Positions 1 to 24,411 of a stretch of DNA of 24,506 bases are shown one piece after another (within the stretch, counting starts at the first letter, position 1; each line of letters opens with the position of its first letter). The stretch spans positions 124,001 through 148,506 of the forward strand of contig MU271187.1 of assembly GCA_021432655.1 (NCBI GenBank), given 5' to 3'. The translations under genes were made by a program, and so were the position numbers. The stretch is from Atractiella rhizophila. Taxonomy: Eukaryota. Under the pieces are notes generated by a model, which saw nothing but the letters and a program-made list of their open reading frames with translations, made no database searches and was not told the origin of the DNA.

Positions 1-1786
1 TGTCCGTCAGAACAGAGAGTAGTTGATAGCTGAAAGGAAGACGGAGATATTCGACGTGTTGAAAGTATAGGAACCCTTCAACGAATGGAAAGACGTCGCT
101 CAGGACAATTACTGGCGAAATTTGGTCCACAGACTGGGTATGCTCTGGTAGAAGAGAGCTGGCACTGAAAGCGCTAAACTCCGGCGACACCACCAGAGCT
201 TTGAGAGATGTGAATTGATGCACAAATTTAAGCGTTGCTGCAACATCATTTTCAATCATTAGCCAGCTGGGAATTGACAGATATGTTAAAGTATTCACAG
301 AGCTTTCGGTAAGTAGTATCATAGGAAAGAGGCTCTGCCAACGAGATTCAGATTGGGGAGGTGTAAGGAGCCGGGACAAGTCGAGTGTTTCTAACTTGAA
401 CGGCCGGGAAGTATTCGCTGTGGCCTCGAGCACCTGCACGTTACCACACAGCACGAGGTTGGAAAGGTTGGTGCTTTCAAATAAGAATGGAAACGCTTCA
501 TCGAGGGAGACAGAGTGGCCATTCGACAGAAAGATTAACTCCAGATATTGAGCTTTGGGCAGTGGCGGGAGAGACCACGATTTCGTCGTGCTCATCAAGT
601 CGGGAGCATCCATTGCGGAGCAAATTGTGATGCCAAAACTGACGAGAGTGTCGGCAAACAAGCGAATGAAAGGGCCGAAATCCGCAGTGTCAAGAATTTC
701 GTGGGAGAAAGTCACAAAAAGGTTCTTCAGAGATTCGACACTGCCGCAGAAGGATTCAATCCAATGAGCGAATGAATCCCCAACGTATAACGGCCTAACT
801 TCGAGCTCTCGGAGGGCAGGGAGTGCAATTGGGGGGAGCACGACGTAAGGTATCTTCAGCAGCAGGCGTCCCAAGACAGTGCAGCCACCCAAAGAGTGCA
901 ACAGCAACTGTGATGTCTCCTTTGCTTCTTTCAGCTCCTCCTTGTCTTGATAGGGCGAATGCAGATGCCTTGAATCGTCAAGCTTCAGAAATATCAGGGA
1001 ACGAGGGAAGGCAAAATCTGGAGGGGGAGCTGCAGGGTAGACATCAGCACCCCACACCAACGTTAGGTGAAGCAAGCTGTCCAGCTTCTGCAGGATCGCA
1101 TATATATGTGGAAATAGTTCGAATGGAATGTACTCAAACTGACAAGTACGAACGAACTTGCCCTGGGAGGGGAATTCAGTTAAAGTCCTGTTGAATGGAA
1201 TATATCTCCACGCTATCTCTTCCCGAATGACAACAATGCTAAATCTCCTGATAGCCACCTCGTTCCAGCGTCGACAAACAAGGTGTACTGGCGTACAATG
1301 GAACAGAGAACTTGCTGCGACATACAAGAAAATCAAACTGAGCAGCTCATCAGGCAATGGTATGTCATTGGAGAGTCGATTGAGGCCTAACTCATCTCCT
1401 TCGTTCGGCAGAGGTTCTGTTGTCTCCTTGTTAATCGGAAAACCAACGTTGCGTAGGTTCTCGTGATGCGGACTGAGCATTCTTTGAATCATTTCAGGAG
1501 TCAAGATCTCCTCCAACGGCTGGTTCCCAATCGAAATTCCGCGAAGAAGATAATAGATCCAAGCAGGAAGGCCATTAATGATGGCAAGAGTAAGCATGTG
1601 ATCGGAAATGTCGACTTTGAAGGACACAAGGTGATCTCGAAGTTGAGACGCACGCTCAAAATACTGATCCAAAGTCTCCATTTTTCTCAGGCGCAAATGA
1701 AAAAAGCCAGTCATAGCCAATGCTAAATCAGCGAGATTCGGTTGCTGTATGGAGTGGACGCCGACGCCAGGATCAAGAGGATCCAT
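1..1786 (-). CDS. F-box protein with LRR-like C-terminal region and N-terminal Copia-gag (Retrotran_gag_2/UBN2)-like segment; 3' end outside window
   Basis: Manual translation gives a stop-free frame from ATG 1786 to the window edge (595 codons). It is missing from the ORF track because no stop lies in the window. F-box-like PLPDELLSLIFLYV...LVCRRWNEVA at ~1360-1250. Downstream LxxLxL-type repeats (LDSLLHLTL, LPALRELEV, FKLETLDL, FTSLKALVV). An upstream intron/exon (gtgagt at ~1833) is possible. Confidence 0.8.
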   Translation of the reverse strand, partial: MDPLDPGVGVHSIQQPNLADLALAMTGFFHLRLRKMETLDQYFERASQLRDHLVSFKVDISDHMLTLAIINGLPAWIYYLLRGISIGNQPLEEILTPEMIQRMLSPHHENLRNVGFPINKETTEPLPNEGDELGLNRLSNDIPLPDELLSLIFLYVAASSLFHCTPVHLVCRRWNEVAIRRFSIVVIREEIAWRYIPFNRTLTEFPSQGKFVRTCQFEYIPFELFPHIYAILQKLDSLLHLTLVWGADVYPAAPPPDFAFPRSLIFLKLDDSRHLHSPYQDKEELKEAKETSQLLLHSLGGCTVLGRLLLKIPYVVLPPIALPALRELEVRPLYVGDSFAHWIESFCGSVESLKNLFVTFSHEILDTADFGPFIRLFADTLVSFGITICSAMDAPDLMSTTKSWSLPPLPKAQYLELIFLSNGHSVSLDEAFPFLFESTNLSNLVLCGNVQVLEATANTSRPFKLETLDLSRLLTPPQSESRWQSLFPMILLTESSVNTLTYLSIPSWLMIENDVAATLKFVHQFTSLKALVVSPEFSAFSASSLLPEHTQSVDQISPVIVLSDVFPFVEGFLYFQHVEYLRLPFSYQLLSVLTD

Positions 1787-2715
1787 CAAAAAACTGGACT
1801 CGAATCAGTCACTTGACATTAATACAAACTCACGACTTAAGCTTATACCTACGTTTAAATAATCACTTAATTTAGGTGATATATTACGAGAAATGAAATC
1901 AGAGGAGGCGGTTTTATCCTCGTTCGTTGTTTTCCCGGAAACATGAGCACGGTGCAAGCTTCGGAAAATTAATGTGCGGAACCTAAAGGCTAAGGAGCGC
2001 CACACTGAACCGGATCGGACCAGATGGATAACGACAAAAGAAGTTTTTCCACCCTTTTGATCTTTCTTTTGCAAAGTGCAGCTGACTTTGGCAGGAGTTA
2101 TTGCGTAGCGGTATGAAAATCGCTTTGCGATAACCAGGCCAAAATTTGACTTATTCAGTTTACATTTACGCTAACTGGGAAGATCTGTATCATGCAACAT
2201 GTCTCTTTCAGTAGCTATTGAATGGAAAAAGGAAGAAAGCGGAAGATTGTATATCTATCCCTGCATATCGAGTCTGTCTATCTGACTTTATTCACCTCTC
2301 TTATCGCTCGCGATGAGGGGAACGCCCACCTTTGCCTATCTACACTTTTTATAGCATTGTCATGTGTAAGAAAATACTCATTACGCATACAGAATATCAC
2401 TGCTGTCAATCTTTCTCCGTAAATTATTTATTATAACGCAACAAAGTCGTAGGCTTTCTTTGTTGTGCAACAAAGTTATAAGCCTGCTTTGTTCGCTTGG
2501 CAACAAAGGTACAGACTTGATTTGTGCAAGTCGGAATTGCTTGAACCCTTGTCACCCACTCCTTGTCCTCTAACTCGCTCTCTTGTCCTCTTCCATCTTT
2601 GTTCAACTGTTGTCAGGTAATGGTAAACACGACAATGAATATCTCGTAAAATATATATCTGATGCCCTCCTCCCTTCGTTCATAAGTTTCAAAGACCAAA
2701 CGGATTTATCACAAC

Positions 2716-4324
2716 ATGGAAGTCCTCCCTCGTTATCACGGCATGACCTGGGGCTGGCGCTCAAGTTTCTACCTTCGTCTCGGCGGCGCCACTCCAAACG
2801 GATACCCAGGCTTTGAAGACGATGATGATGGTGACACAGATGATTCTTCGAACGATGGAAGCGATGGTGACGGTGACGGCGGCGGAAATGACGGCGGTAA
2901 CGGTGGTGGTGGCGGAGATGGTGGGTATGACGATGACGGGAGTGCTGGCAGTTATCGCACAGCTCCTCAATCATGGACGGGAGACGACATTAGTGAAGGA
3001 AGGAGCAGCGCTTCCGAGACGCCTTCATGGCAAACTCCCCCTCAAACTCCTCCTCAAACTCCCCCTCGAACTTCTCCTCAAACTCCCCCTCGAACTCCTC
3101 CTCAAACTCCCCTCGAACTCCTCCTCAAACTCCCCCTCGAACTCCTCCTCAAACTCCCCCTCAAACTCCCCTCAAACTCCTCCTCAAACTCCTCCTCAAA
3201 GCCCCCCTCCAGCTCAGAATCCAGGTCGTAACCCAGCTCCTTCTCCCACCTCAAATCAAAATCAAGCAGCACCGTCGCCTCGAGATCCTGCCCCTGCAGG
3301 TCGTATCAGAACTCCTCGTCCAGCTGCAAATCACAGTCAAGCAAGGCCAAGTCGAGCAGACCCACCACTCCAGGATGCAACATCTTCAAACCATGGCACA
3401 ACACATCCTCGAGGCTCGAATCAGATTCCGGCAACTTCAACTTCTGGTAGAGCCCCTATTCTTCGTCCAGCTACAAGTCAGAATCGAGCAGAACCAGAGC
3501 CACGGGATCCGGCCCCAGCAGCTCAGAATATAGCTCCTCGTCCGGCTGCGAATCAAAATCAGAGAAGACCAACCCCACAGGATCCAATACCGCCGGTGGT
3601 ACCTCGTCCAGCTTCGAATCAGAATCAGTCAGGAACACAGCCGCGAAATCGCGCACAAGCCCGCCGCCCAACATCGAATCAAGCTGCGAATCAAACAGAA
3701 CCACATCATGCCCAAAGCAGCGCACCCCGCGCAGCAAGCCTGCGTCCCACTGTGCACTTCGCACCTCTCCCTCTCACGGATCTTGTTCTTCACACTGACG
3801 ATGCTCGAGATCCACATCGTGCCAACCGCATGCTACTCCGTTCGCTTCTGAATGAAGCACTCCTGCGGAACCCAATGAATATCCAACTGAGTTTCGTGAG
3901 AGGCAACGAGAATCAAGGACGTGTACGTCGTACAATGACGATTACGTGGGCGGTACAAATTCGATGGATCATGCAAGGTCTCTACTTGGAAGCTTTCGCG
4001 AACATCCCTGTTATGCGACCTGGCCATAACCGAGAAGATATACTCCAGTCCATCATCGATGCGGACAATCTAGAGGAGGCGGACAGAATTTGGCACGCGC
4101 ACCATCCGGCATATGGATTATATAACACACCTGCAGCGTTGCAGAGCTGGGACGACAGGATGCGGGCCTTACTTACTCTAAGGTTGGATGACGATGTGCA
4201 GTTGCAGGCTGCCCTTCTTGCGACAGGAGACAGAAACATCGTCGTCCTCCCGCATTCATGGGAGAACAGCAATACGGGGGCAATTCTGATGGATCTTAGA
4301 AGGCACTTAAGCATGAGAAGCTAA
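2716..4324 (+). CDS. Low-complexity protein with C-terminal NADAR (YbiA)-like domain; two apparent 1-bp frameshifts in the minisatellite
   Basis: ATG 2716 (MEVLPRY... then D/G-rich). The QTPP repeat passes through all three frames because of two 11-nt units. Restoring 2 bases gives one 536-aa ORF ending at 4324. The C-terminus WDDRMRALL...LQAALLATGDRNIV...W...NTGAILMDLRRHL resembles the NADAR pattern LLATGDRxLVE...WG...NxLGxxLMxLR. Confidence 0.65.
3031..3208 (+). repeat. Coding minisatellite, 15 units of 12 bp (C[A/G]AACTCC[C/T]CCT = Q/R-T-P-P)
   Basis: Units parsed directly. Units 3103-3113 and 3162-3172 are 11 nt (C4 instead of C5). Confidence 0.95.
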
Positions 4325-4963
4325 CTGAACCCTTGTGAGTCCATCCAGCGTTGTCCTGCCTCTGGAATAACCATGTTCATTCAGCCGAGATCTCGTCTTT
4401 CCGACAATACCACAATGAATTTTCAAACGACATGGATGTCTTGATGCTTGACGACTATCTTGCAAAACGAGCAAATCGACTGGATCGATATGGTACCTTA
4501 TTTCTGTATTATCTGTATTTTTATGTTTGAAATTAAATGTGTTGTTGTTCTTATCATAACGATTCCATGGATATTTTCCTCTCATTCCTCGGAAGGAAGC
4601 AAACCCGACCCTATGATGAAGCGTGCACGGCAAAGTCACCTTGACCTCAGAACCATCTCCTTGCATCTTCCCAATGTGAACAGGAGTATGAGCTAAAACC
4701 CTGATCGTAACCCTAAACTTGAAGGCGTGACACTAACTGAGCAGTCAATTGTCATTCCCTATAGCAGAACCTCAGCAGAACCAAAGATCCACATTCACTC
4801 GCCAAACTCCTCGATAACGGTGGCCATCTGGAGATTCCGTTGATCTTTGTGGCCGTCAAAACTACAGGACCATAAGATTCCAGTGGCCAACTCACTCCTC
4901 CACCTCATCTAGACGATTTTCGACTTCTCTTCAGGCTCTCATTGAACAACGCCGGTGGAAAGA

Positions 4964-6125
4964 ATGGAAGCGACAAACGAGGAAACGCACGTCCACTCGG
5001 TCTACTCGCACATCGCTTCACATTTCTCTCAAACACGATACAAAGTTCACCTTCCCTATCCCTTTCTCGTTCCTTTCTGGCTTGCTAGCCTGTACTGACC
5101 CTTACCTTGTGATTGAAAGCCATGGCCAAATGTCGACAAGTTCCTCACGTCCCTCCCATCAAACTCCATCGTCCTGGACGCTGGATGCGGGAATGGCAAA
5201 TACCTTGGAACGCGATCAGTACTCTCCAGAACTCTCACCCCATCATCCTCGAAAGGCAAGATCGATGGAGACGTTTCTAGCTTAGGTTTCATATTCAGCA
5301 TCGGCGTGGATCGCTCCGAGGAACTGCTGGGCATCGCGAGGGGAAGGGGACATGAAGTCTTCAGAACTGATGTTGGCGGAGGGATGGAGAACTGTGTTAG
5401 AGAGGGAGTTTTCGTACGTTGCTTTCTCCGCTCCGTTGCCTTTAGGCAGGAGGGATGGATGGACTGACTCAAGGAGAAGGCAGGACGCGGCTATCAGTAT
5501 AGCAACAATTCACCACTTCACGTCCCACCATCGTAGGTGTGAGGCTGTTAAGGTTCGCTCACCATCTTCCTCTCACCCAGTGAACATGACCCAGCTCAGA
5601 AATATGTGCTATGGACAGGCGCTTATGCTAGCTATAAAGCCTTCGAGCGGCTCAAGGAAGGGAGGGAGAGCTCTCATACACGTCTGGGCGCTGGAGCAGG
5701 ATGAAGCGTTCTTTAAGAAACGCGGGATGGAGCCGGCTTCTCTCTCCATCTCCTCTTCCCATTCCGCAACAGATTCTGATACGGGACCATCATGTAGCCA
5801 TCACGGCACCTCCCTTTCAATAGGTCTCCACGAAGGCGAAGAAGGGATTAAGGATCGGACGCAAGACTGGCTCGTCCCCTGGACCACGAAAGAGGGAGGA
5901 GAGGAGCGCATGTACAAGCGATTTTATCACCTCTTTAAGCAAGGAGAGCTCGAGGGAATGGTCGAAAACGCTGCCAAGGAGCTTGGGTGGGCTTTTACTG
6001 GAAAGGATTCAGAGGATGATGATGGAGGTGCCGGAGGGGAAGGATTCCGGGTGAGGATTGTGGATGGTGGGTGGGAGAAGGATAATTGGTTCGTTGAGCT
6101 CTTGATCTTCAGATATTCTTCTTAG
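4964..6125 (+). CDS. TRM9: tRNA wobble-uridine (mcm5U34) methyltransferase Trm9, copy 1, 316 aa
   Basis: Exons 4964-5044, 5120-5413, 5484-5552, 5619-6125 with GT-AG introns. Motifs: HVHSVYSHIASHFSQTRYKPWP, SAM motif LDAGCGNGKYL, DAAISIATIHH, VWALEQ, QDWLVPW, YKRFYHLF, DNW. Confidence 0.92.
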
Positions 6126-6264
6126 TCTTCTTGCTACTGGTGAGGAGTGGACGAATGTGGATTACAATATAACTAGTGTACAATACTTTTCCCAACCACG
6201 CTCTCTCCTTAGCATCATGTAATGACAAAGAGACCGAGGCGGCCACAAGAGAAGCTGAAGATGC

Positions 6265-6426
6265 TCAGACGGCTCGTTCCCCCTCCTGCTCCAACTGTGC
6301 CCTCCGTCTCTCTCTCAGCTTCAACCTCTCCTGTTTCGCCTCCTCTAACGCCACCTTCAGCTCCTCCGTATTTTGGGGGAGCGGTTTCATCTGTCCATGT
6401 CCAGAGCATGCATGTCAGCACACAAA
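6265..6426 (-). pseudogene. Orphan last exon (plus part of intron) of PET100 left by the duplication
   Basis: Matches 8576-8737. The upstream exons are absent because the duplication junction lies in intron 2. Confidence 0.8.
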
Positions 6427-6649
6427 CCATCCGGCATATGGATTATATATCACACCTGCAGCGTTGCAGAGCTGGGACGACAGGATGCGAGCCTTACTTA
6501 CTCTAAGGTTGAATGACGATGTGCAGTTGCAGGCTGCCCTTCTTGCGACAGGAGACAGAAACATCGTCGTCCTCCCGCATTCATGGGAGAACAGCAATAC
6601 GGGGGCAATTCTGATGGATCTTAGAAGGCACTTAAGCATGAGAAGCTAA
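6426..6649 (+). pseudogene. 5'-truncated copy of the NADAR-like C-terminus
   Basis: Matches 4101-4324 with N>I, D>N and one synonymous change. Confidence 0.75.
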
Positions 6650-7274
6650 CTGAACCCTTGTGAGTCCATCCAGCGTTGTCCTGCCTCTGGAATAACCATG
6701 TTCATTCAGCCGAGATCTCGTCTTTCCGACAATACCACAATGAATTTTCAAACGACATGGGATGTCTTGATGCTTGACGACTATCTTGCAAAACGAGCAA
6801 ATCGACTAGATCGATATGATACCTTATTTCTGTATTATTTGTATTTTTATGTTTGAAATTAAATGTGTTGTTGTTCTTATCATAACGATTCCCTGGATAT
6901 TTTCCTCTCATTCCTCGGAAGGAAGCAACCCGACCCTATGATGAAGCGTGCACGGCAAAGTCACCTTGACCTCAGAACCATCCGCTTGCATCTTCCCAAT
7001 GTGAACAGGAGAGTGAGCTAAAACCCTGATATCTCGTAACCCTAAACTTGAAGGCGTGGCACTAACTGAGCAGTCAATTGTTATCCCCTATAGCAGAACC
7101 AAAGACCCACATTCATTCGCCAAACTCCTCGATAACGGTGGCCATCTGGAGATTCCGTTGATCTTTGTGGCCGTCAAAACTACAGGCCCATAAGATTCTA
7201 GTGGCCAACTCACCTCATCTAGACGATTTTTCGACTTCTCTTCAGGCTCTCATTGAACAACGCCGGCGGAAAGA

Positions 7275-8436
7275 ATGGAAGCGACAAACGAGGAAACGCA
7301 CGTCCACTCGGTCTACTCGCACATCGCTTCACATTTCTCTCAAACACGATACAAAGTTCGCCTTCCCTATCTCTTTGTCGTTCCTTTCTGGCTTGCTAGC
7401 CTGTACTGACCCTTACCTTGTGATTGAAAGCCGTGGCCAAATGTCGACAAATTCCTCACGTCCCTCCCATCAAACTCCATCGTCCTGGACGCTGGATGTG
7501 GGAATGGCAAATACCTTGGAACGCGATCAGTACTCTCCAGAACTCTCACCCCGTCATCCTCGAAAGGCAAGATCGATGGAGACGTTTCTAGCTTAGGTTT
7601 CATATTCAGCATCGGCGTGGATCGCTCCGAGGAACTGCTGGGCATCGCGAGGGGAAGGGGACATGAAGTCTTCAGAACTGATGTTGGCGGAGGGATGGAG
7701 AACTGTGTTAGAGAGGGAGTTTTCGTACGTTGCTTTCTCCGCTCCGTTGCCTTTAGGCAGGAGGGATGGATGGACTGACTCAAGGAGAAGGCAGGACGCG
7801 GCTATCAGTATAGCAACAATTCACCACTTCACGTCCCACCATCGTAGGTGTGAGGCTGTTAAGGTTCGCTCACCATCTTCCTCTCACCCAGTGAACATGA
7901 CCCAGCTCAGAAATATGTGCTATGGACAGGCGCTTATGCTAGCTATAAAGCCTTCGAGCGGCTCAAGGAAGGGAGGGAGAGCTCTCATACACGTCTGGGC
8001 GCTGGAGCAGGATGAAGCGTTCTTTAAGAAACGCGGGATGGAGCCGGCTTCTCTCTCCATCTCCTCTTCCCATTCCGCAACAGATTCTGATACGGGACCA
8101 TCATGTAGCCATCACGGCACCTCCCTTTCAATAGGTCTCCACGAAGGCGAAGAAGGGATTAAGGATCGGACGCAAGACTGGCTCGTCCCCTGGACCACGA
8201 AAGAGGGAGGAGAGGAGCGCATGTACAAGCGATTTTATCACCTCTTTAAGCAAGGAGAGCTCGAGGGAATGGTCGAAAACGCTGCCAAGGAGCTTGGGTG
8301 GGCTTTTACTGGAAAGGATTCAGAGGATGATGATGGAGGTGCCGGAGGGGAAGGATTCCGGGTGAGGATTGTGGATGGTGGGTGGGAGAAGGATAATTGG
8401 TTCGTTGAGCTCTTGATCTTCAGATATTCTTCTTAG
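7275..8436 (+). CDS. TRM9: Trm9 tRNA methyltransferase, copy 2
   Basis: Same exon structure shifted by +2311. The four coding differences seen (CCA/CCG, AAG/AAA, TGC/TGT, CCA/CCG) are all synonymous. Confidence 0.92.
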
Positions 8437-8575
8437 TCTTCTTGCTACTGGTGAGGAGTGGACGAATGTGGATTACAATATAACTAGTGTACAATACTTT
8501 TCCCAACCACGCTCTCTCCTTAGCATCATGTAATGACAAAGAGACCGAGGCGGCCACAAGAGAAGCTGAAGATGC

Positions 8576-8983
8576 TCAGACGGCTCGTTCCCCCTCCTGC
8601 TCCAACTGTGCCCTCCGTCTCTCTCTCAGCTTCAACCTCTCCTGTTTCGCCTCCTCTAACGCCACCTTCAGCTCCTCCGTATTTTGGGGGAGCGGTTTCA
8701 TCTGTCCATGTCCAGAGCATGCATGTCAGCACACAAAATCCTGACTGCACCGCAAAACACTTGCCCTCTCCTTTAGGTCCGGCCTCGTGAACCGTGACAC
8801 CAGATGCTTCACATGGTTGTCGTACCAATCGGGATCACCGTAATGGGCGAAGATGAAGATGGGGAAGAAAAGATAAAGGGAGAACTTGAAGACTTCAAGC
8901 CTGGGACCTGTGATGTCAAATTTTTAAACACAAAGGAAGTCATTAGGGAGAGCAGAAGTACCGTTGCGACTGAGACGCGTCAT
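8576..8983 (-). CDS. PET100: Mitochondrial cytochrome c oxidase assembly factor Pet100-like, 96 aa
   Basis: Exons 8983-8962, 8907-8765, 8701-8576 give MTRLSRNGPRLEVFKFSLYLFFPIFIFAHYGDPDWYDNHVKHL...LPQNTEELKVALEEAKQERLKLRERRR. This has the GPxLEVFKF motif, a TM helix and a charged helix. Intron 2 is GC-AG. Confidence 0.82.
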
Positions 8984-20146: not shown

Positions 20147-21151
20147 CTAGAGGCGCTTGTCGAAAATAGAGCGTGAGCCGTGGATGGAGACATGGATAAG
20201 GATGGGATGATTCCGAATATAAATTTGGAAAGCTTCTGAACTCCATCTTCCGATCTTTTGTATGGTAGAGTCCGGAATGCCATTTGCAGCAAGGTGCGTG
20301 GCACCTCCCGAACGTAAGGAGTGCCCCGCGACATCACTTGAGAAGTGCATTCGCAGTCGGCGAATAAACCAGGAGCGCGTCGGGACGGAACCGTCCTCTC
20401 GAAGGAAAAGGTCGGGATGATAAGGGTGTGCCAAATCTCGTACTTCGAGGTAATGCTTCAAGATAGTAACCGGGTCAATCTTGTCGCACTCTCTCTTCTG
20501 AAGTAGGCATAGGTTCCCCCTGAACATTCTGTCGCCCTTGTGAGCTGGCAGCATATAAGTTACCATTCTCTCCGTCTCTTTGACCGATGTCCTCTTGATT
20601 CTCTTTCTAAAATCCTTCTTGATCTTCTCATCCGGATCCACTAATTCTCCAGCCCGATGTAGGTTATGCCAACCAATCGACACAATGCATTTAAATAGGA
20701 TGTCGTCGTAGGTGTTGGAGGAAAGAGAGTCAAAGAGGGACAGCAGGTCGGATTCCATCAAGGGACGTTTCCTGTTAGCTGGTGATTGGAAACGTTTGAA
20801 AGTGCCTGCAAGTGTCATTTTCACAAGCCGGGATCGCCTGACGGTGTGCCAATCTGGGAAGTAGGGTTCGATGAAGGAGGCAATACCGGAGAGATAGGAC
20901 TTGATGGTTTGTGGTTTGACGTAATGGGACATGAAAACGATGTAAAACGAGAGGGTGTCGCTGGAAGGGGTGAGTGGGAAGTGATGGAGTTGGCAGAACT
21001 GAATGTATGAGCGCGCAGCGGAGGTGTAAGATTCCTTTGTTGCTGGATCATAAGAGAGAGCCAGGGTTGAGGATCGTTCTTGCAGCAACCGTTCCCTGCT
21101 CCAAGCCTTTCGGTTGGGTTGTTTCCCACCCGAAAGGTTCAACAGGTCCAT
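20147..21151 (-). CDS. Tyrosine recombinase of the retrotransposon, 334 aa
   Basis: Catalytic set present: R (HRAGEL), K (HKGD), HxxR (GHSLRSGGAT), W (GRWSS), Y (IYIR). N-terminal core-binding region T..SY.SA..SYIQFC...TIKSYLSGI. Confidence 0.95.
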   Translation of the reverse strand: MDLLNLSGGKQPNRKAWSRERLLQERSSTLALSYDPATKESYTSAARSYIQFCQLHHFPLTPSSDTLSFYIVFMSHYVKPQTIKSYLSGIASFIEPYFPDWHTVRRSRLVKMTLAGTFKRFQSPANRKRPLMESDLLSLFDSLSSNTYDDILFKCIVSIGWHNLHRAGELVDPDEKIKKDFRKRIKRTSVKETERMVTYMLPAHKGDRMFRGNLCLLQKRECDKIDPVTILKHYLEVRDLAHPYHPDLFLREDGSVPTRSWFIRRLRMHFSSDVAGHSLRSGGATHLAANGIPDSTIQKIGRWSSEAFQIYIRNHPILIHVSIHGSRSIFDKRL

Positions 21152-21153
21152 TG

Positions 21154-24100
21154 TTACTCCTCCTCCCCCCTCAGCTCCTCGGCGGGGGGTTCGAAATAGT
21201 TGATTGTGATAGTAGGGTGGTACGTTCGAACAACTTCTTCGCGATTTCGTGAAAGAGCGTCTGCAATGTAATTTTGTTCACCCGGAACGTGTAGAACCCT
21301 GAGGTCGACCTCTCGGTGTTCCGCTAAGAGGAGAACCACTGTGCGAAACAACTTTGCGAGAGAGAACGGTGGTGAATGAGAAGAGAATAGGTCTACCGAA
21401 TTCATTGAGTCCGTATAAAGAACAATTCGACGGTAACCCGCTGCTATGCCATAGCGTAAGGCATGCAGGACAGAGGCCGACTCTGCCACGAAGATGTCGA
21501 CAGGTTCGGGCAATTGAAATTGACCAATGAAGCCCAGGTTGAGCGAGGGGAACCAGAATCCAATTCCCTTTGGACAAGCGTCGCAGTAGGCAACCAGATC
21601 TGCATCCTTTAGTGGCCAATCCTTGTCCTCAATCCATACGATGCCTTCCGATGCTTCAACGTAGTCTGCAGCCCACTCCAGATCTCTCTTCACCGATTTA
21701 TTGAGGTAAACTGAGGCGGCCCGATGGGTTTTGCCAGCAGTTTTTTGATATGACGATTGCAACGCAAAACGAGCGAGCGGGAAGACGTTAAGGATCCAGT
21801 TGAACCATCCCTGCATCCTCCACCACTCCAGAAGTGGCCTTTTTCTTCCAGGAACTCGCACAAACTCTCGTAGGGCTGCCACGAACTCCTCCTTCTTCTG
21901 AACCGTCAGGGTGAGGAGAAGGTTAGGGGTGTCGACATCAAAACCAATGATTTCGAGTTGTCTCCCATGTAACTGCTTCTTCCAATCGTAAGGGATCCCG
22001 AGACGTTCCCAGAGGGCCAGAAGTTGGGCTTGACGAAGGGGAAGGCGGTAGCCTCGGAAGGTAGTCATCGATTGAACGTGTTGGACCGACCATACATCGT
22101 CCATCAAATGTTGAACCGTTGGGATTTTTAGCACTCGGTTGGCAATCCAGCATACCATGGAGAAAAAGGAACACCATAAGTAGGGGCTACCCGAGCTTCC
22201 GAAAACTGCAAACCAGTCCACATAGTAGAGGTCATCGATGCGGAGGATTTGGAGAAGTTGCCACAGCGGGTGCATGGGCAGGAGACGAAAGGCGGAGGAG
22301 ACGTCAGACTTCCATAACATTAAGTTATCACCTCCCCAGATTCCAGCATAATATCTGATCCAAGGGATGAAATCTTGCATGGAGTCATAGCGCACCTTCA
22401 CCTTTGCCTTGTCGATAAGAGAGTTGAGTGAGTTGTCCCCAAAAGACTGATCTGTAATTATGCGAAAACGATCCGAGTCCTTCTTTGGGATCAATCCGAG
22501 GGGACTGGTCACCATGCCAGGGAGTAGGTTTTCGAAAGGAGGGGACCACCGTTCAGCTTTCACCTCCTCATCTCTCATTTCCCTTAAGGCTTCTCTTCTC
22601 ATTTCGCAACTTCCATGATTTGGCTGCTCATTCCACTGTGAGGGCTTTGTAGTTGCATGGGGCCAGAATCCTTCGCGAAGCCCAGTCAAGACCGACTCGA
22701 CAAAGGGTTGGTTGGGGTGAGAGCGAAGTTGCGAGGCGAAATAATCTACGTTTATAGGCGTCCAGACTTTAAAGAGAGAGGGATACGAGTTAATAGTAGA
22801 CCAAGCTGTCTTGTCATCGAGGAAAATCGGTGGAGGGCGTGGAAGCGGAACGGCTGACTCTGAAGATTCTGAGGAGGGATTCGCCAGACACTCGTCACCA
22901 TTCCAAAGGAAATTCCTAAGATAACGGGGACGAGGAGGGAGTCCTTCCCTACTTCTCCTTGATGACTTTGATCTTGGGACAGCTTGAATCTCCCGATTTA
23001 TGTCCCTTAGCCCCACAGACGGAACATTCATGTTTCCTTCTACACTTCCCATCTTCCAGTCCACATTTTCCTTCATTCCAATTCCTACAGACCTCGTCGA
23101 GCCGCTTGTGAGGTCGATTGGAATTGCTTGAACTACGCTTGCCTGTAGTAGGAGGAGAAGAAGAAGAAGAGGCAGTCGTCGATGTATTCTTGACTCCAGC
23201 AACGATATAGCGAGTATATACACCGTGGAAATGAGGGTGATTGAAATCGCTGATGGTGAGTGCAGGGGTCTGTGCAAGTTTGATTCTGAAGCCAACATCG
23301 TAGGCGAGAACCTGATAATGGTACTCCTTCGGGAGATCGGTGAAGAGGCCAATGATGAACTTGAAATATTCCTGAAGTCCGTCGGCAAGCATTGGAAAGA
23401 CCGTGACAACGCTCTTCGCATATAACGTCCAAGTTGTAATGCAGGCACCGGAGTCCTCCACCTTTTCCTCTGCCATCTTCCCCTCGATGCTAAGCTCGTG
23501 GGACCCGAGCGTGGCCAGCCTTCGCCCCTCGGGAGAGAATCCATGCAAGTAGGCATGCAGCTGAGGGAAGGGAATGTATTCGCCAAGGAGGAGAGAATCG
23601 AGGTGTACTGGCTTGAGGGGAGGGCACACGGCGGAAGATTGAAGGTCGAGTCTAGCAGACTTAACGTCCTTCCTATGGTTCGCCGTGAGCTTGCTGACCT
23701 CCAAAGCCAGGGCAGTAGGATTCGGTCCAAAGGGATTAGAACCTCCCCCATCCTTTCTCCAAGAGAAGAGGGCTCTGTTTGGTTTCCTTCGAGTCCCCTC
23801 CTCATCATCACTGCTCTCAATCTCCTCTCGCCCTCGTTTCGTAGCCTGTGCAAGAGTGTGGAGGAGATCCTGGACGGTCGATGAGGGAGGAACAGTATCA
23901 GGAGCTCCTGCAACACCGCTCGGTCCAGCCCTGGACGTAGATGTAGCGGCGCCCAAGAGGGTACTAAGTATCTGCTGTGAAGCATCTCCAGTACCCTCTC
24001 CTGTTCCATCTCCAACGTTTCCAGCCTCCCGTCTGGCGTCGAACTGATCCAATCCATCCAAGTAAGCCCTTCTAGCTCCCTCATCAGGGATGAGCCCCTG

Positions 24101-24246
24101 CAGCCTTTCCTCGATAGCGGTACGGTCGCTGCCGTCGCCTCTGCCGTAGTTGGACACCAAACCCAAAGCGTCGTAAACAGCACTAAGCTGAGCAGAACGA
24201 GCTTCCACCTGGCCCGAATTCGAGACAGGTGTGGCAGAGGTCTCAT
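21154..24246 (-). CDS. pol: Reverse transcriptase-RNase H (pol); frame open for 1030 aa, conserved part from ~22940
   Basis: RT motifs SPLGLIPKK..RFRIITDQS, KSDVSSAFR, FGSSGSP, LMDD, IIGF. RNase H motifs YCDAC, AES, YTDS, HVPGEQNYIADALSR. The true start is uncertain. Confidence 0.93.
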   Translation of the reverse strand: MRPLPHLSRIRARWKLVLLSLVLFTTLWVWCPTTAEATAATVPLSRKGCRGSSLMRELEGLTWMDWISSTPDGRLETLEMEQERVLEMLHSRYLVPSWAPLHLRPGLDRAVLQELLILFLPHRPSRISSTLLHRLRNEGERRLRAVMMRRGLEGNQTEPSSLGERMGEVLIPLDRILLPWLWRSASSRRTIGRTLSLLDSTFNLPPCALPSSQYTSILSSLANTFPSLSCMPTCMDSLPRGEGWPRSGPTSLASRGRWQRKRWRTPVPALQLGRYMRRALSRSFQCLPTDFRNISSSSLASSPISRRSTIIRFSPTMLASESNLHRPLHSPSAISITLISTVYILAISLLESRIHRRLPLLLLLLLLQASVVQAIPIDLTSGSTRSVGIGMKENVDWKMGSVEGNMNVPSVGLRDINREIQAVPRSKSSRRSREGLPPRPRYLRNFLWNGDECLANPSSESSESAVPLPRPPPIFLDDKTAWSTINSYPSLFKVWTPINVDYFASQLRSHPNQPFVESVLTGLREGFWPHATTKPSQWNEQPNHGSCEMRREALREMRDEEVKAERWSPPFENLLPGMVTSPLGLIPKKDSDRFRIITDQSFGDNSLNSLIDKAKVKVRYDSMQDFIPWIRYYAGIWGGDNLMLWKSDVSSAFRLLPMHPLWQLLQILRIDDLYYVDWFAVFGSSGSPYLWCSFFSMVCWIANRVLKIPTVQHLMDDVWSVQHVQSMTTFRGYRLPLRQAQLLALWERLGIPYDWKKQLHGRQLEIIGFDVDTPNLLLTLTVQKKEEFVAALREFVRVPGRKRPLLEWWRMQGWFNWILNVFPLARFALQSSYQKTAGKTHRAASVYLNKSVKRDLEWAADYVEASEGIVWIEDKDWPLKDADLVAYCDACPKGIGFWFPSLNLGFIGQFQLPEPVDIFVAESASVLHALRYGIAAGYRRIVLYTDSMNSVDLFSSHSPPFSLAKLFRTVVLLLAEHREVDLRVLHVPGEQNYIADALSRNREEVVRTYHPTITINYFEPPAEELRGEEE

Positions 24247-24256
24247 CTTCCAACAT
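22949..24256 (-). CDS. gag: Gag-like ORF1, 435 aa, with C-terminal Cys/His zinc finger
   Basis: First ORF of the element. CRNWNEGKC...C...HECSVC...H cluster and W..Y...V...FP.....L..Y...I...F......VLAYD..FR core, as seen in DIRS-type ORF1. Confidence 0.85.
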   Translation of the reverse strand: MLEDETSATPVSNSGQVEARSAQLSAVYDALGLVSNYGRGDGSDRTAIEERLQGLIPDEGARRAYLDGLDQFDARREAGNVGDGTGEGTGDASQQILSTLLGAATSTSRAGPSGVAGAPDTVPPSSTVQDLLHTLAQATKRGREEIESSDDEEGTRRKPNRALFSWRKDGGGSNPFGPNPTALALEVSKLTANHRKDVKSARLDLQSSAVCPPLKPVHLDSLLLGEYIPFPQLHAYLHGFSPEGRRLATLGSHELSIEGKMAEEKVEDSGACITTWTLYAKSVVTVFPMLADGLQEYFKFIIGLFTDLPKEYHYQVLAYDVGFRIKLAQTPALTISDFNHPHFHGVYTRYIVAGVKNTSTTASSSSSPPTTGKRSSSNSNRPHKRLDEVCRNWNEGKCGLEDGKCRRKHECSVCGAKGHKSGDSSCPKIKVIKEK

Positions 24257-24411
24257 GCACGGTCAACGGTGGAGCGGGAAGATTATAGGCGAAATGCGGA
24301 GGGTTAGGAAGAGGGCTAGGTTGTCGAGTGGTGAGAGATTAACGTTGTTGAGGGAGAGGAGTCGGCAATCAGGCAATGAAACAATGATTCGATAGATGGA
24401 CGTAGTTCTAT

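What the first reader, a model, noticed from the sequence alone, without database searches (positions are those of the whole stretch)
1250..1786. Copia-gag-like domain fused in frame to an F-box in an intronless host ORF
Seen: the N-terminus reads LALAMTGFFHLRLRKMETLDQYFERASQLRDHLVSFKVDISDHMLTLAIINGLPAW...LTPEMIQRML, followed by a linker, an F-box and LRR-like repeats, with no stops in 595 codons. Known: the Ty1/Copia gag C-terminal capsid region (Retrotran_gag_2/UBN2) has the pattern L..l.m...Esv.eY......l...L...g..isD......il.gLP..y......lt.e.v...l. Inference: a captured gag fragment on an SCF adaptor could act as an oligomerisation module or as a capsid decoy that sends retrotransposon particles to ubiquitination. 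No zinc knuckle, protease or integrase follows, so this is not a Copia element.
Basis: partly seen in the sequence, partly recalled or inferred. Interest (0 to 1): 0.72.

Follow-up and report, generated by a model that had tools for sequence, protein, structure and literature searches.

The report
Retrotransposon capsid domain fused to F-box
A fungal gene for a ubiquitin-ligase adaptor (F-box plus leucine-rich repeats) carries at its front end the C-terminal capsid domain of a Copia-type retrotransposon Gag protein, a rare case of a mobile-element part built into a host protein-degradation factor.

Summary
On the minus strand an ORF starts at ATG 1786 and runs 595 codons off the window's left end. 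The full protein, P0002, has 672 aa.

- **Gag-like domain (aa 16-112):** it is related to Ty1/Copia Gag by sequence. An exhaustive phmmer search hit four true Copia Gags at E 7e-6 to 7e-4, and hhalign gave 97.4%. The Pfam PF14223 match is only sub-threshold. By fold it is the capsid C-terminal domain (CA-CTD): Copia capsid Z 10.4, and the yeast restriction factor Drt2 Z 9.7.
- **Rest of the protein:** a disordered linker, an F-box (PF12937, above cut-off) and an FBXL-like LRR solenoid. There is no capsid N-terminal domain, zinc knuckle or pol.
- **Real gene:** two paralogues (32% identical) keep the same architecture, and the gag core is their best-conserved part (46%). A spliced contig with a GT-AG 5'UTR intron runs unbroken through the gag and F-box segments.
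- **Function (inferred):** an SCF adaptor in which the CA-CTD acts as a self-association module. The predicted homodimer scored 0.64 against a best control of 0.02. The rival reading is a Gag-binding restriction factor.
- **Novelty:** no gag-F-box fusion turned up in the papers I searched, and I found this architecture only in the three paralogues. I rate it a new variant of gag domestication.

The parts
2..1786 (-). Coding sequence of the gag-CTD/F-box/LRR protein (aa 1-595 of 672; the last 77 codons lie beyond the window's left end)
   Evidence: open frame. (P0002, 672 aa, 100% identical). (tblastn of P0002 aa 1-595 maps to 1786-2).
1451..1741 (-). Ty1/Copia Gag capsid C-terminal-domain-like module (aa 16-112), a five-helix bundle
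   Evidence: PF14223 E 0.02 at profile positions 83-167/172. phmmer hits to four Copia Gags. hhalign 97.4%. Atlas TM 0.62-0.67 to seven PF14223 clusters. VIA Z 10.4 to Copia capsid residues 92-182 and Z 9.7 to Drt2. Helices at 18-29, 39-55, 62-72, 76-82 and 91-104.
1367..1450 (-). Low-confidence, poorly conserved linker (aa 113-140)
   Evidence: pLDDT below 50 at aa 109-121 and block means of 46 from aa 111 to 129. 21% identity to paralogue P0005 against 33% overall.
1250..1357 (-). F-box (aa 144-179; LPDELL...VCRRW)
   Evidence: PF12937 at 27 bits, above the 24.3 cut-off. The paralogue matches F-box families at the same place, below cut-off.
2..1231 (-). Leucine-rich-repeat solenoid of FBXL type (aa ~186 onward), the presumed substrate-binding part
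   Evidence: The Atlas structure search of aa 135-672 gave TM 0.63/0.72 to F-box/LRR clusters, with the aligned part named PF25372 LRR_FBXL15. No Pfam LRR family was found by sequence.
1794..1852 (-). 59-nt intron in the 5'UTR (GTAGGT ... CTGAT ... CAG on the minus strand), ending 8 nt upstream of the ATG
   Evidence: Joint in contig 17 of run X5 (1793 joined to 1855 with one letter between). Splice signals read. The exact borders assume that X5 has one A fewer in the run 1854-1856.
1853..1922 (-). 5'UTR exon 1 as far as the contig reaches; it holds no ATG and there is an in-frame stop before the start codon
   Evidence: record 17 piece 1855-1922. Sequence.

Best explanation
This is a real, transcribed host gene, most likely of an atractiellomycete fungus judging by how a source names its paralogues. 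It encodes a substrate adaptor of an SCF ubiquitin ligase. The F-box (aa 144-179) would dock on Skp1 and the C-terminal LRR solenoid would hold the substrate. In front of the F-box, joined by a roughly 30-aa flexible linker, sits a domesticated capsid C-terminal domain (CA-CTD) of a Ty1/Copia Gag protein. The capsid N-terminal domain, nucleocapsid and pol are all absent.

What is shown in silico: the homology, the fold, the conserved architecture and the transcript. I put the anatomy at about 0.9.

What is inferred: the CA-CTD keeps the one activity such domains are known for, pairing through helices 1 and 3. On that reading it makes the adaptor a dimer, as the D-domain in front of the F-box does in Cdc4/Fbw7/beta-TrCP and as the CA-CTD-derived SCAN domain does in vertebrate zinc-finger proteins. 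I put this function at about 0.45.
For: **Homology.** phmmer of aa 1-129 against 1.84 billion representatives gave 8 proteins at E<=1e-3. They were the protein itself, one paralogue, four proteins with strong PF14223 matches (E 7.3e-6, 2.7e-5, 3.1e-4, 6.8e-4; Pfam) and two repeat proteins. hhalign of the paralogue N-termini against four Copia Gags gave 97.4% and E 1.5e-11 over 74 columns. tblastn of a conifer Gag (P0008) hit window 1699-1529 at E 2e-9.

**Fold.**
- The Atlas's own model matched seven clusters, all carrying PF14223, at TM 0.62-0.67.
- The AF2 model had pLDDT 70, and 81-90 over aa 20-80.
- Foldseek's top hit was Copia capsid 8vvw_A, probability 1.00.
- VIA gave Z 10.4 to Copia capsid residues 92-182 and Z 9.7 to the whole Drt2 CA-CTD chain. 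The first 29 of 50 rows are all retroelement or retroviral capsids.

**Host part.** F-box above the Pfam cut-off. FBXL-like LRR by structure.

**Real gene.**
- P0005 and P0010 have the same architecture and are 32% identical to P0002 over 617 aa.
- The gag core (aa 17-83) is the best-conserved segment: 46%, against F-box 31%, LRR 34% and linker 21%.
- Contig 17 of run X5 runs colinear over 681-1793 and carries a GT-AG joint in the 5'UTR.
- None of the 29 listed X5 differences makes a stop.

**Dimer.** Two copies of aa 1-129 scored 0.64 against a best control of 0.02. The runs agree in at least 76% of contacts and the partner pLDDT is at least 72. In the calibration, the mark was reached by 21 of 30 proteins solved as pairs and by 0 of 23 solved as single chains. 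The tightest contacts join helix 18-29 with helix 62-72 of the other copy. That is the alpha1/alpha3 'Dimer-1' geometry described for Ty1 p18m (PMC8458377, passages read).
Against: - The Pfam match is below the gathering score in both paralogues (15 and 16.7 bits against 27).
- No Foldseek match reached E<=0.001; the best was 0.041.
- The single-sequence AF2 model was poor (pLDDT 46.6). The better model used an alignment in which 4 of 6 rows are Copia Gags, so it leans towards their fold.
- Two hits that scored better than the Gags were repeat proteins (TPR, 12 stretches; an unnamed repeat, 17 stretches), which shows that short helical motifs can inflate scores.
- The dimer pass may come from the model's memory of solved CA-CTD dimers (caveat).
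- Run X5 is of unknown kind ('?'). That it is RNA is inferred from the splice-like joint.
- Polymorphism (13 synonymous and 16 non-synonymous among 29 listed differences, 12 more unlisted) shows at most moderate constraint.
- The architecture was found only in three paralogues that appear to share one contig, so there is no orthologue-based evidence of long-term retention.
Confidence: 0.5

Rival explanations
1. Capsid-targeting restriction factor. The CA-CTD binds the CA-CTD of Gag from resident Copia elements, as Ty1 p22/p18 and Drt2 do. It thereby poisons particle assembly and also brings Gag to the SCF ligase for ubiquitination, a fungal functional analogue of TRIM5alpha.
For: The second-best structural match is Drt2, an endogenised CA-CTD restriction factor (Z 9.7, whole chain). 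p22 CA-CTD entries also match. CA-CTD-only proteins restrict their elements through CA-CTD contacts (PMC8458377 passages; PMC10951436 abstract). The gene belongs to a small lineage-restricted set of paralogues in a transposon-rich neighbourhood (DIRS-like element in the window). Six of the 10 differences between the near-identical paralogues P0005 and P0010 fall in aa 1-102 and none in aa 103-634. The predicted pairing surface is the one used in capsid lattices.
Against: The domain is far from every Gag found. The best hits are 36-41% identical over 48-74 aa and, where a source names them, come from an alga, a conifer and a pseudoscorpion. No fungal Gag appeared. A large, conserved LRR domain already provides a substrate-binding part. 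The gag core is the most conserved segment between the old paralogues, not the fastest-evolving. Clustering of the P0005/P0010 differences at both termini is equally explained by gene conversion of the middle. No resident Copia Gag could be examined.
Confidence: 0.25
2. Passenger relic. An old insertion of a Copia fragment became the 5' end of an F-box gene and supplies the start codon and a folded cap, but the gag part has no function of its own.
For: The architecture is seen only in three paralogues. Polymorphism in the gag part is 2 synonymous and 2 non-synonymous. F-box families are known to pick up transposon domains (PMC12062965, passages read).
Against: The gag core is better conserved (46%) than the F-box and LRR between paralogues that are only 33% identical overall. 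The five-helix fold and its hydrophobic helix-1/helix-3 surface are still predicted with confidence.
Confidence: 0.15
3. Chance resemblance. The N-terminus is an ordinary helical bundle unrelated to Gag.
For: Sub-threshold Pfam score. Foldseek E>0.001. Repeat proteins outrank the Gags. Helical folds match easily (note).
Against: Four independent Copia Gags at library-wide E<1e-3. All matches fall on the same Gag segment, PF14223 positions 83-167 and 88-144 in the two paralogues. hhalign 97.4%. 29 of the first 29 VIA rows are capsids. Seven of seven Atlas structural rows carry PF14223.
Confidence: 0.05
4. Part of a mobile element, for example a retroelement that encodes its own Gag-F-box protein.
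For: Transposon-rich window.
Against: No pol domains in the 672-aa protein. No long direct or inverted repeats around the gene within the window. Copies are few and 32% identical, not a recent burst. The gene has a 5'UTR intron.
Confidence: 0.03

Closest known systems
Drt2 and Ty1 p22/p18 of Saccharomyces (CA-CTD-only restriction factors; PDB 9rxy, 7nlh)
   Same: A fungal protein whose gag-derived part is just the Ty1/Copia-type CA-CTD five-helix bundle (Z 9.7 over the whole Drt2 chain). The predicted pairing through helices 1 and 3 resembles Dimer-1.
   Different: Those are free-standing fragments closely related to the element they restrict. This one is fused to an F-box/LRR ligase adaptor and is far diverged from any known Gag. 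A restriction activity is untested.
SCAN domain of vertebrate zinc-finger transcription factors
   Same: A CA-CTD domesticated as an N-terminal module of a multi-copy host protein family (described in PMC8321522, passages read). That SCAN acts as a dimerisation module is recalled, not read here.
   Different: SCAN derives from a Gmr1-like Ty3/Gypsy Gag and sits on DNA-binding proteins in tetrapods. Here the source is Copia-type, the partner is an F-box/LRR protein and the host is a fungus.
Other gag-host gene fusions (Crtg10-KELP in plants, Crtg14-PEX14 in Tremellales/Trichosporonales)
   Same: A co-opted gag sequence fused in frame to a host gene (PMC8321522). The plant DEK_C/PC4+PF14223 cluster also appeared among the Atlas structural neighbours (row 4).
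   Different: Different partners. Crtg14 comes from a Bel-Pao Gag. Those genes are conserved above family level, whereas this one is known from a single species' paralogues.
F-box genes that captured transposon domains (F-box + Tc1/mariner HTH in Caenorhabditis)
   Same: An F-box family gaining a transposon-derived protein domain (PMC12062965, passages read).
   Different: A DNA-transposon HTH in nematodes, against a retrotransposon capsid domain in a fungus. The word 'gag' occurs 0 times in that paper's main text, and its supplement could not be read.
D-domain of dimeric F-box proteins (Cdc4, Fbw7, beta-TrCP); TRIM5alpha as a capsid-binding E3 (both recalled, not from a call)
   Same: A self-association module placed directly N-terminal to the F-box, or a ubiquitin ligase coupled to a capsid-recognising part.
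   Different: No sequence or fold relation. These are functional analogies only.

Membership tests
Ty1/Copia Gag, Pfam Retrotran_gag_2 (PF14223) | Score at or above Pfam's gathering cut-off (27 bits) | tested here: not met
   14.7-15 bits for P0002/P0001 and 16.7 bits for paralogue P0005.
Ty1/Copia Gag, Pfam Retrotran_gag_2 (PF14223) | Significant sequence relation to undoubted members | tested here: met
   Four PF14223-bearing proteins at library-wide E 7.3e-6 to 6.8e-4. hhalign 97.4%.
Retroelement capsid C-terminal domain (CA-CTD) fold | Five-helix bundle superposable on solved CA-CTDs | tested here: met
   Copia capsid residues 92-182 at Z 10.4, rmsd 3.1, 88 aligned. Drt2 at Z 9.7, rmsd 3.1, 87 of 90 aligned. 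This is a predicted model, and its alignment included Gags.
Complete Gag protein or Copia element | Capsid N-terminal domain, CCHC nucleocapsid, then protease-integrase-RT-RNase H, flanked by LTRs | tested here: not met
   The match starts at PF14223 position 83, with only 22 residues before it. P0002 has no zf-CCHC, rve, RVT or protease family. The upstream frame shows no Gag similarity. No flanking long repeats within the window, though the gene runs off the window.
F-box protein (SCF substrate adaptor) | F-box motif | tested here: met
   PF12937 at 27.0-27.2 bits against a cut-off of 24.3, aa 144-179.
F-box protein (SCF substrate adaptor) | C-terminal protein-interaction domain (LRR, FBXL class) | tested here: met
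   Atlas structural matches at TM 0.63/0.72 with the aligned part named PF25372 LRR_FBXL15. Predicted models only; no Pfam LRR hit by sequence.
F-box protein (SCF substrate adaptor) | Binds Skp1 and assembles with cullin | not testable with these tools
   No genome was held for this window, so its Skp1 could not be fetched. This needs a binding assay.
Gag-derived restriction factors (p22/p18, Drt2 type) | Close relation to, and binding of, the Gag of a resident element, with inhibition of its mobility | not testable with these tools
   No whole genome. No fungal Copia Gag among the hits.
CA-CTD dimerisation modules (SCAN-like use) | Self-association through the CA-CTD | tested here: inconclusive
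   Predicted homodimer 0.64 against a best control of 0.02. This is a model's confidence and may reflect memory of solved CA-CTD dimers.

The most novel reading that the evidence does not exclude
The gene family is a fungal capsid-directed E3 ligase. The domesticated CA-CTD co-assembles with Gag of Copia elements and the attached F-box hands the trapped Gag to SCF for ubiquitination. It would be a TRIM5alpha-like restriction system built from the transposon's own capsid domain, and an extension of the p22/Drt2 principle from passive poisoning to active degradation.
Probability: 0.22. Interest if true: 0.85.

Novelty: new variant of a known kind. Interest (0 to 1): 0.62.

Why it matters
Domesticated gag genes are few. 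The survey I read lists 14 deep events, 3 of them in fungi (PMC8321522), and fused forms are fewer still. A capsid C-terminal domain placed directly in front of an F-box links two themes that have so far been separate: capsid-derived self-association or restriction modules, and ubiquitin-ligase adaptors.

If the domain only dimerises the adaptor, it is an independent fungal parallel to the SCAN domain. It would show that CA-CTDs are reusable dimerisation parts.

If it binds Gag, it would be the first retrotransposon restriction factor that couples a capsid mimic to degradation. That would give a directly testable model for transposon control in a fungus.

Tried and rejected
- **Relic of the Gag N-terminal half upstream of the ATG.** A tblastn alignment of a full Gag ran on in frame to nt 2053, and the frame is stop-free for 121 codons (2170-1808). 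Pfam found nothing there at E<=10. A profile of four Gags scored it -1.7 bits, and 231 of 500 shuffles did as well. Rejected.
- **Word-indexed protein searches.** Searches with P0001, alignment A1 and P0005 returned only the query itself. They even missed the 32% paralogue, so they say little about how far the family extends.
- **Metagenome contig scans.** Scans with A1 and with P0002 gave 156 and 55 pattern matches, none confirmed.
- **PDB sequence search.** The profile of A1 had no hit at E<=10.
- **Single-sequence AF2.** pLDDT 46.6, unusable.
- **Own-genome search.** No genome is held, so paralogue counts, resident Copia elements, Skp1 and dN/dS on paralogue DNA could not be done.
- **Runs X1, X2 and X4.** These gave short contigs only within 1-1248 and none over the gag segment. 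Absence of cover is not evidence.
- **Earlier findings of this scan.** None by place, sequence or words.
- **Literature.** 'F-box' with 'CA-CTD' gave 0 papers, and 'Atractiella' with 'F-box' gave 0. Broader searches turned up no gag-F-box fusion among the 35 papers listed; of these I opened only two. The supplement of PMC12062965, which may list F-box/TE-domain pairs, could not be read.
Full report
**What is in the sequence**

On the minus strand an open frame starts at ATG 1786-1784 and runs 595 codons to window position 2, where the window ends. The same protein is in the public collection at its full length of 672 aa (P0002).

Pfam reports three families:
- F-box-like PF12937 at aa 144-179: 27 bits, cut-off 24.3.
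- F-box PF00646: sub-threshold.
- Retrotran_gag_2 PF14223 at aa 23-111, aligned to profile positions 83-167 of 172: 15 bits (E 0.02), below the cut-off of 27.

P0002 has no zinc-knuckle, protease, integrase or RT family at E up to 1.

**Is the gag resemblance real?**

I searched aa 1-129 with phmmer against all 1.84 billion representatives. Eight proteins had E<=1e-3:
- the protein itself;
- P0005 (1.6e-7), a 673-aa protein with the same layout;
- four proteins that Pfam shows to be true Copia-type Gags or polyproteins: P0006 at 7.3e-6, P0007 at 2.7e-5, P0008 at 3.1e-4 and P0009 at 6.8e-4, with PF14223 E-values from 1e-21 to 1e-112;
- two repeat proteins, P0003 (TPR, 12 stretches) and P0004 (17 stretches). 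Their scores are sums over a repeated short motif, and I set them aside as spurious.

Other sequence tests agree. A profile of the three paralogue N-termini aligned to four Gags with hhalign at 97.4% and E 1.5e-11 over 74 columns. In both paralogues the match lies on the same Gag segment.

The points against are these. Pfam's threshold is not met. The first AF2 model, made without an alignment, was poor (pLDDT 46.6).

**Which part of Gag it is**

The ESM Atlas's own model of this protein matched seven clusters over aa 1-125, all carrying PF14223, at TM 0.62-0.67.

An AF2 model built on a six-row alignment reached pLDDT 70.3 overall and 81-90 over aa 20-80. It has helices at 18-29, 39-55, 62-72, 76-82 and 91-104. 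The alignment held the window protein, P0005 and four Gag segments.

Foldseek against the PDB gave no match at E<=0.001. Its best was the Drosophila Copia capsid 8vvw_A (E 0.041, probability 1.00, TM 0.58). The next matches were PEG10, MOAP1, the Ty1' CA-CTD, Drt2, Arc and p22.

VIA-align against 48,161 chains gave:
- Z 10.4 to 8vvw_A, with model residues 16-109 on chain residues 92-182;
- Z 9.7 to Drt2, over its whole chain 261-350;
- retroelement or retroviral capsids in the first 29 of the 50 rows listed.

The segment is therefore the capsid C-terminal domain (CA-CTD). Two caveats apply. Four of the six alignment rows were Gags, and helical bundles reach middling Z values easily. Two results did not use my alignment: the Atlas model and the ESMFold2 folds (pLDDT 73).

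The Gag N-terminal half is absent. Only about 15-22 residues precede the domain. The in-frame, stop-free 121 codons upstream show no Gag similarity: Pfam found none, and the profile score of -1.7 was matched by 231 of 500 shuffles.

**The rest of the protein**

Residues 113-140 are a low-confidence, poorly conserved linker. Residues 135-672 match F-box/LRR proteins of FBXL type by structure, at TM 0.63/0.72, with the aligned part named LRR_FBXL15.

**Is it a real gene?**

*Paralogues.* P0005 and its near-twin P0010 (10 differences in 673 aa) carry neighbouring accession numbers. Their source names them as hypothetical proteins of Atractiella rhizophila, a basidiomycete of the Pucciniomycotina.

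P0002 and P0005 align over 617 aa at 32% identity, running from the gag segment through the F-box and LRR and ending about 60 aa before the C-terminus. Segment by segment, identity is as follows:

| Segment | Identity to P0005 |
|---|---|
| Gag core, aa 17-83 | 46% |
| LRR | 34% |
| F-box | 31% |
| Linker | 21% |
| Overall | 32.6% |

*Transcript.* One coded public run, X5 (kind not on record), holds contigs at 95-99% identity that tile window 1-1793 with no joint. Its contig 17 runs from 681 to 1793 and then joins to 1855-1922. On the gene's strand the skipped stretch reads GTAGGT...CTGAT...CAG, which is a canonical 59-nt fungal intron (1852-1794) if X5 has one A fewer in the run 1854-1856.

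I take this as spliced mRNA. In it the gag segment and the F-box lie in one uninterrupted exon, and ATG 1786 is the first ATG after an in-frame stop. That X5 is RNA is an inference from the joint.

*Polymorphism.* Of the 29 listed differences between X5 and the window in the coding part, 13 are synonymous, 16 are not, and none is a stop. Twelve further differences were not listed. This suggests at most moderate constraint.

**How far the family reaches**

Apart from the three paralogues I found no protein with this architecture. The exhaustive search covered only the N-terminal domain. The word-indexed searches returned only the queries, and two metagenome scans confirmed nothing.

The nearest Gags that a source names come from a green alga, a conifer and a pseudoscorpion. 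No donor element can be named, and the capture looks old or fast-diverged. No whole genome was available.

**How it most likely works**

Established knowledge of F-box proteins makes this an SCF substrate adaptor, with the F-box on Skp1 and the LRR on the substrate. This is inferred from the family and was not tested here.

For the CA-CTD I favour self-association. Two copies of aa 1-129 were predicted to pair with a score of 0.64 against a best control of 0.02. Contacts agreed in at least 76% between runs and pLDDT was at least 72. In the tool's calibration the mark was reached by 21 of 30 proteins solved as pairs and by 0 of 23 solved as single chains.

The tightest contacts join helix 18-29 to helix 62-72 of the partner. 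The same alpha1/alpha3 surface forms the tight 'Dimer-1' of Ty1 p18m (PMC8458377, passages read). The pass may reflect the model's memory of solved CA-CTD dimers.

A dimerising module directly before an F-box would mirror the D-domain of Cdc4/Fbw7/beta-TrCP (recalled, not from a call). It would also mirror the SCAN domain, a CA-CTD reused on vertebrate zinc-finger proteins (PMC8321522, passages read).

The main rival is that the same surface binds Gag of resident Copia elements, as p22/p18 and Drt2 do (PMC10951436 abstract). That would deliver Gag to the ligase.
- For it: the Drt2-like fold, the small lineage-restricted family, the transposon-rich setting, and the six of ten P0005/P0010 differences that fall in aa 1-102 with none in aa 103-634.
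- Against it: the great distance from any known Gag, the presence of a conserved LRR substrate domain, and the high conservation of the gag core.

The two readings are not exclusive.

**Comparison with what is known, and novelty**

Gag co-option is known. The survey I read in passages lists 14 deep events, three in fungi, and two fusions (KELP and PEX14), and does not contain the word 'F-box' (PMC8321522). Capture of transposon domains by F-box genes is also known, for a Tc1/mariner HTH in nematodes. In that paper 'gag' occurs 0 times in the main text, and its supplement could not be read (PMC12062965).

Searches for 'F-box' with 'CA-CTD', and for 'Atractiella' with 'F-box', found 0 papers. 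I therefore rate this as a new variant of a known kind: a Copia-type CA-CTD domesticated as the N-terminal module of an F-box/LRR ligase adaptor.

**Limits**

All structural and binding statements rest on predictions. Expression rests on one run of unknown kind. Selection could not be measured on paralogue DNA. The organism's own Copia elements and Skp1 could not be examined.

Noticed in passing
window 20147-24282 (minus strand): A DIRS-like retroelement. A 1042-codon stop-free frame (21154-24282) carries an RNase H-like RVT_3 match (E 5e-6). It is followed by a 376-codon frame (20147-21277) with a tyrosine-recombinase match (Phage_integrase, 28.6 bits against a cut-off of 27.1). An overlapping 437-codon frame (22949-24262) ends in a Cys/His-rich cluster.
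   Followed up: partly
window 4093-8700: Tandem duplication of about 2.3 kb. Blocks at 4093-5216 recur at 6418-7527 with 96-98% identity. Two identical 279-codon frames lie at 5286-6125 and 7597-8436 and have no Pfam family.
   Followed up: partly
window 3014-3250: A 12-nt periodic repeat (15 overlapping copies; CCCCTCAAACTCCTCCTCAAACT-like) inside a 503-aa Pro/Ser/Thr/Gln-rich frame (2813-4324, plus strand) with no Pfam family.
   Followed up: no
paralogues P0005 and P0010 (not in the window): The 10 amino-acid differences between these near-identical paralogues all lie at aa 7-102 (six) or aa 635-663 (four), with none in the 532 residues between. This could be gene conversion of the middle or selection at the ends; DNA is needed to tell.
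   Followed up: partly
window 1808-2170 (minus strand): The 121 codons directly upstream of the gene are stop-free and in the same frame as the CDS, separated from it by one TGA that lies inside the 5'UTR intron. No similarity to Gag or to any Pfam family was found.
   Followed up: yes
window 1854-1856 and 1871-1873: Run X5 appears to have one A fewer in each of two A-runs of the 5'UTR exon. Frame-breaking length variation there is consistent with that exon being non-coding.
   Followed up: no
window 244-397: Run X5 holds two contig versions of this stretch, one identical to the window and one with 8 differences (records 13 and 14). This suggests two haplotypes or strains in that run.
   Followed up: no
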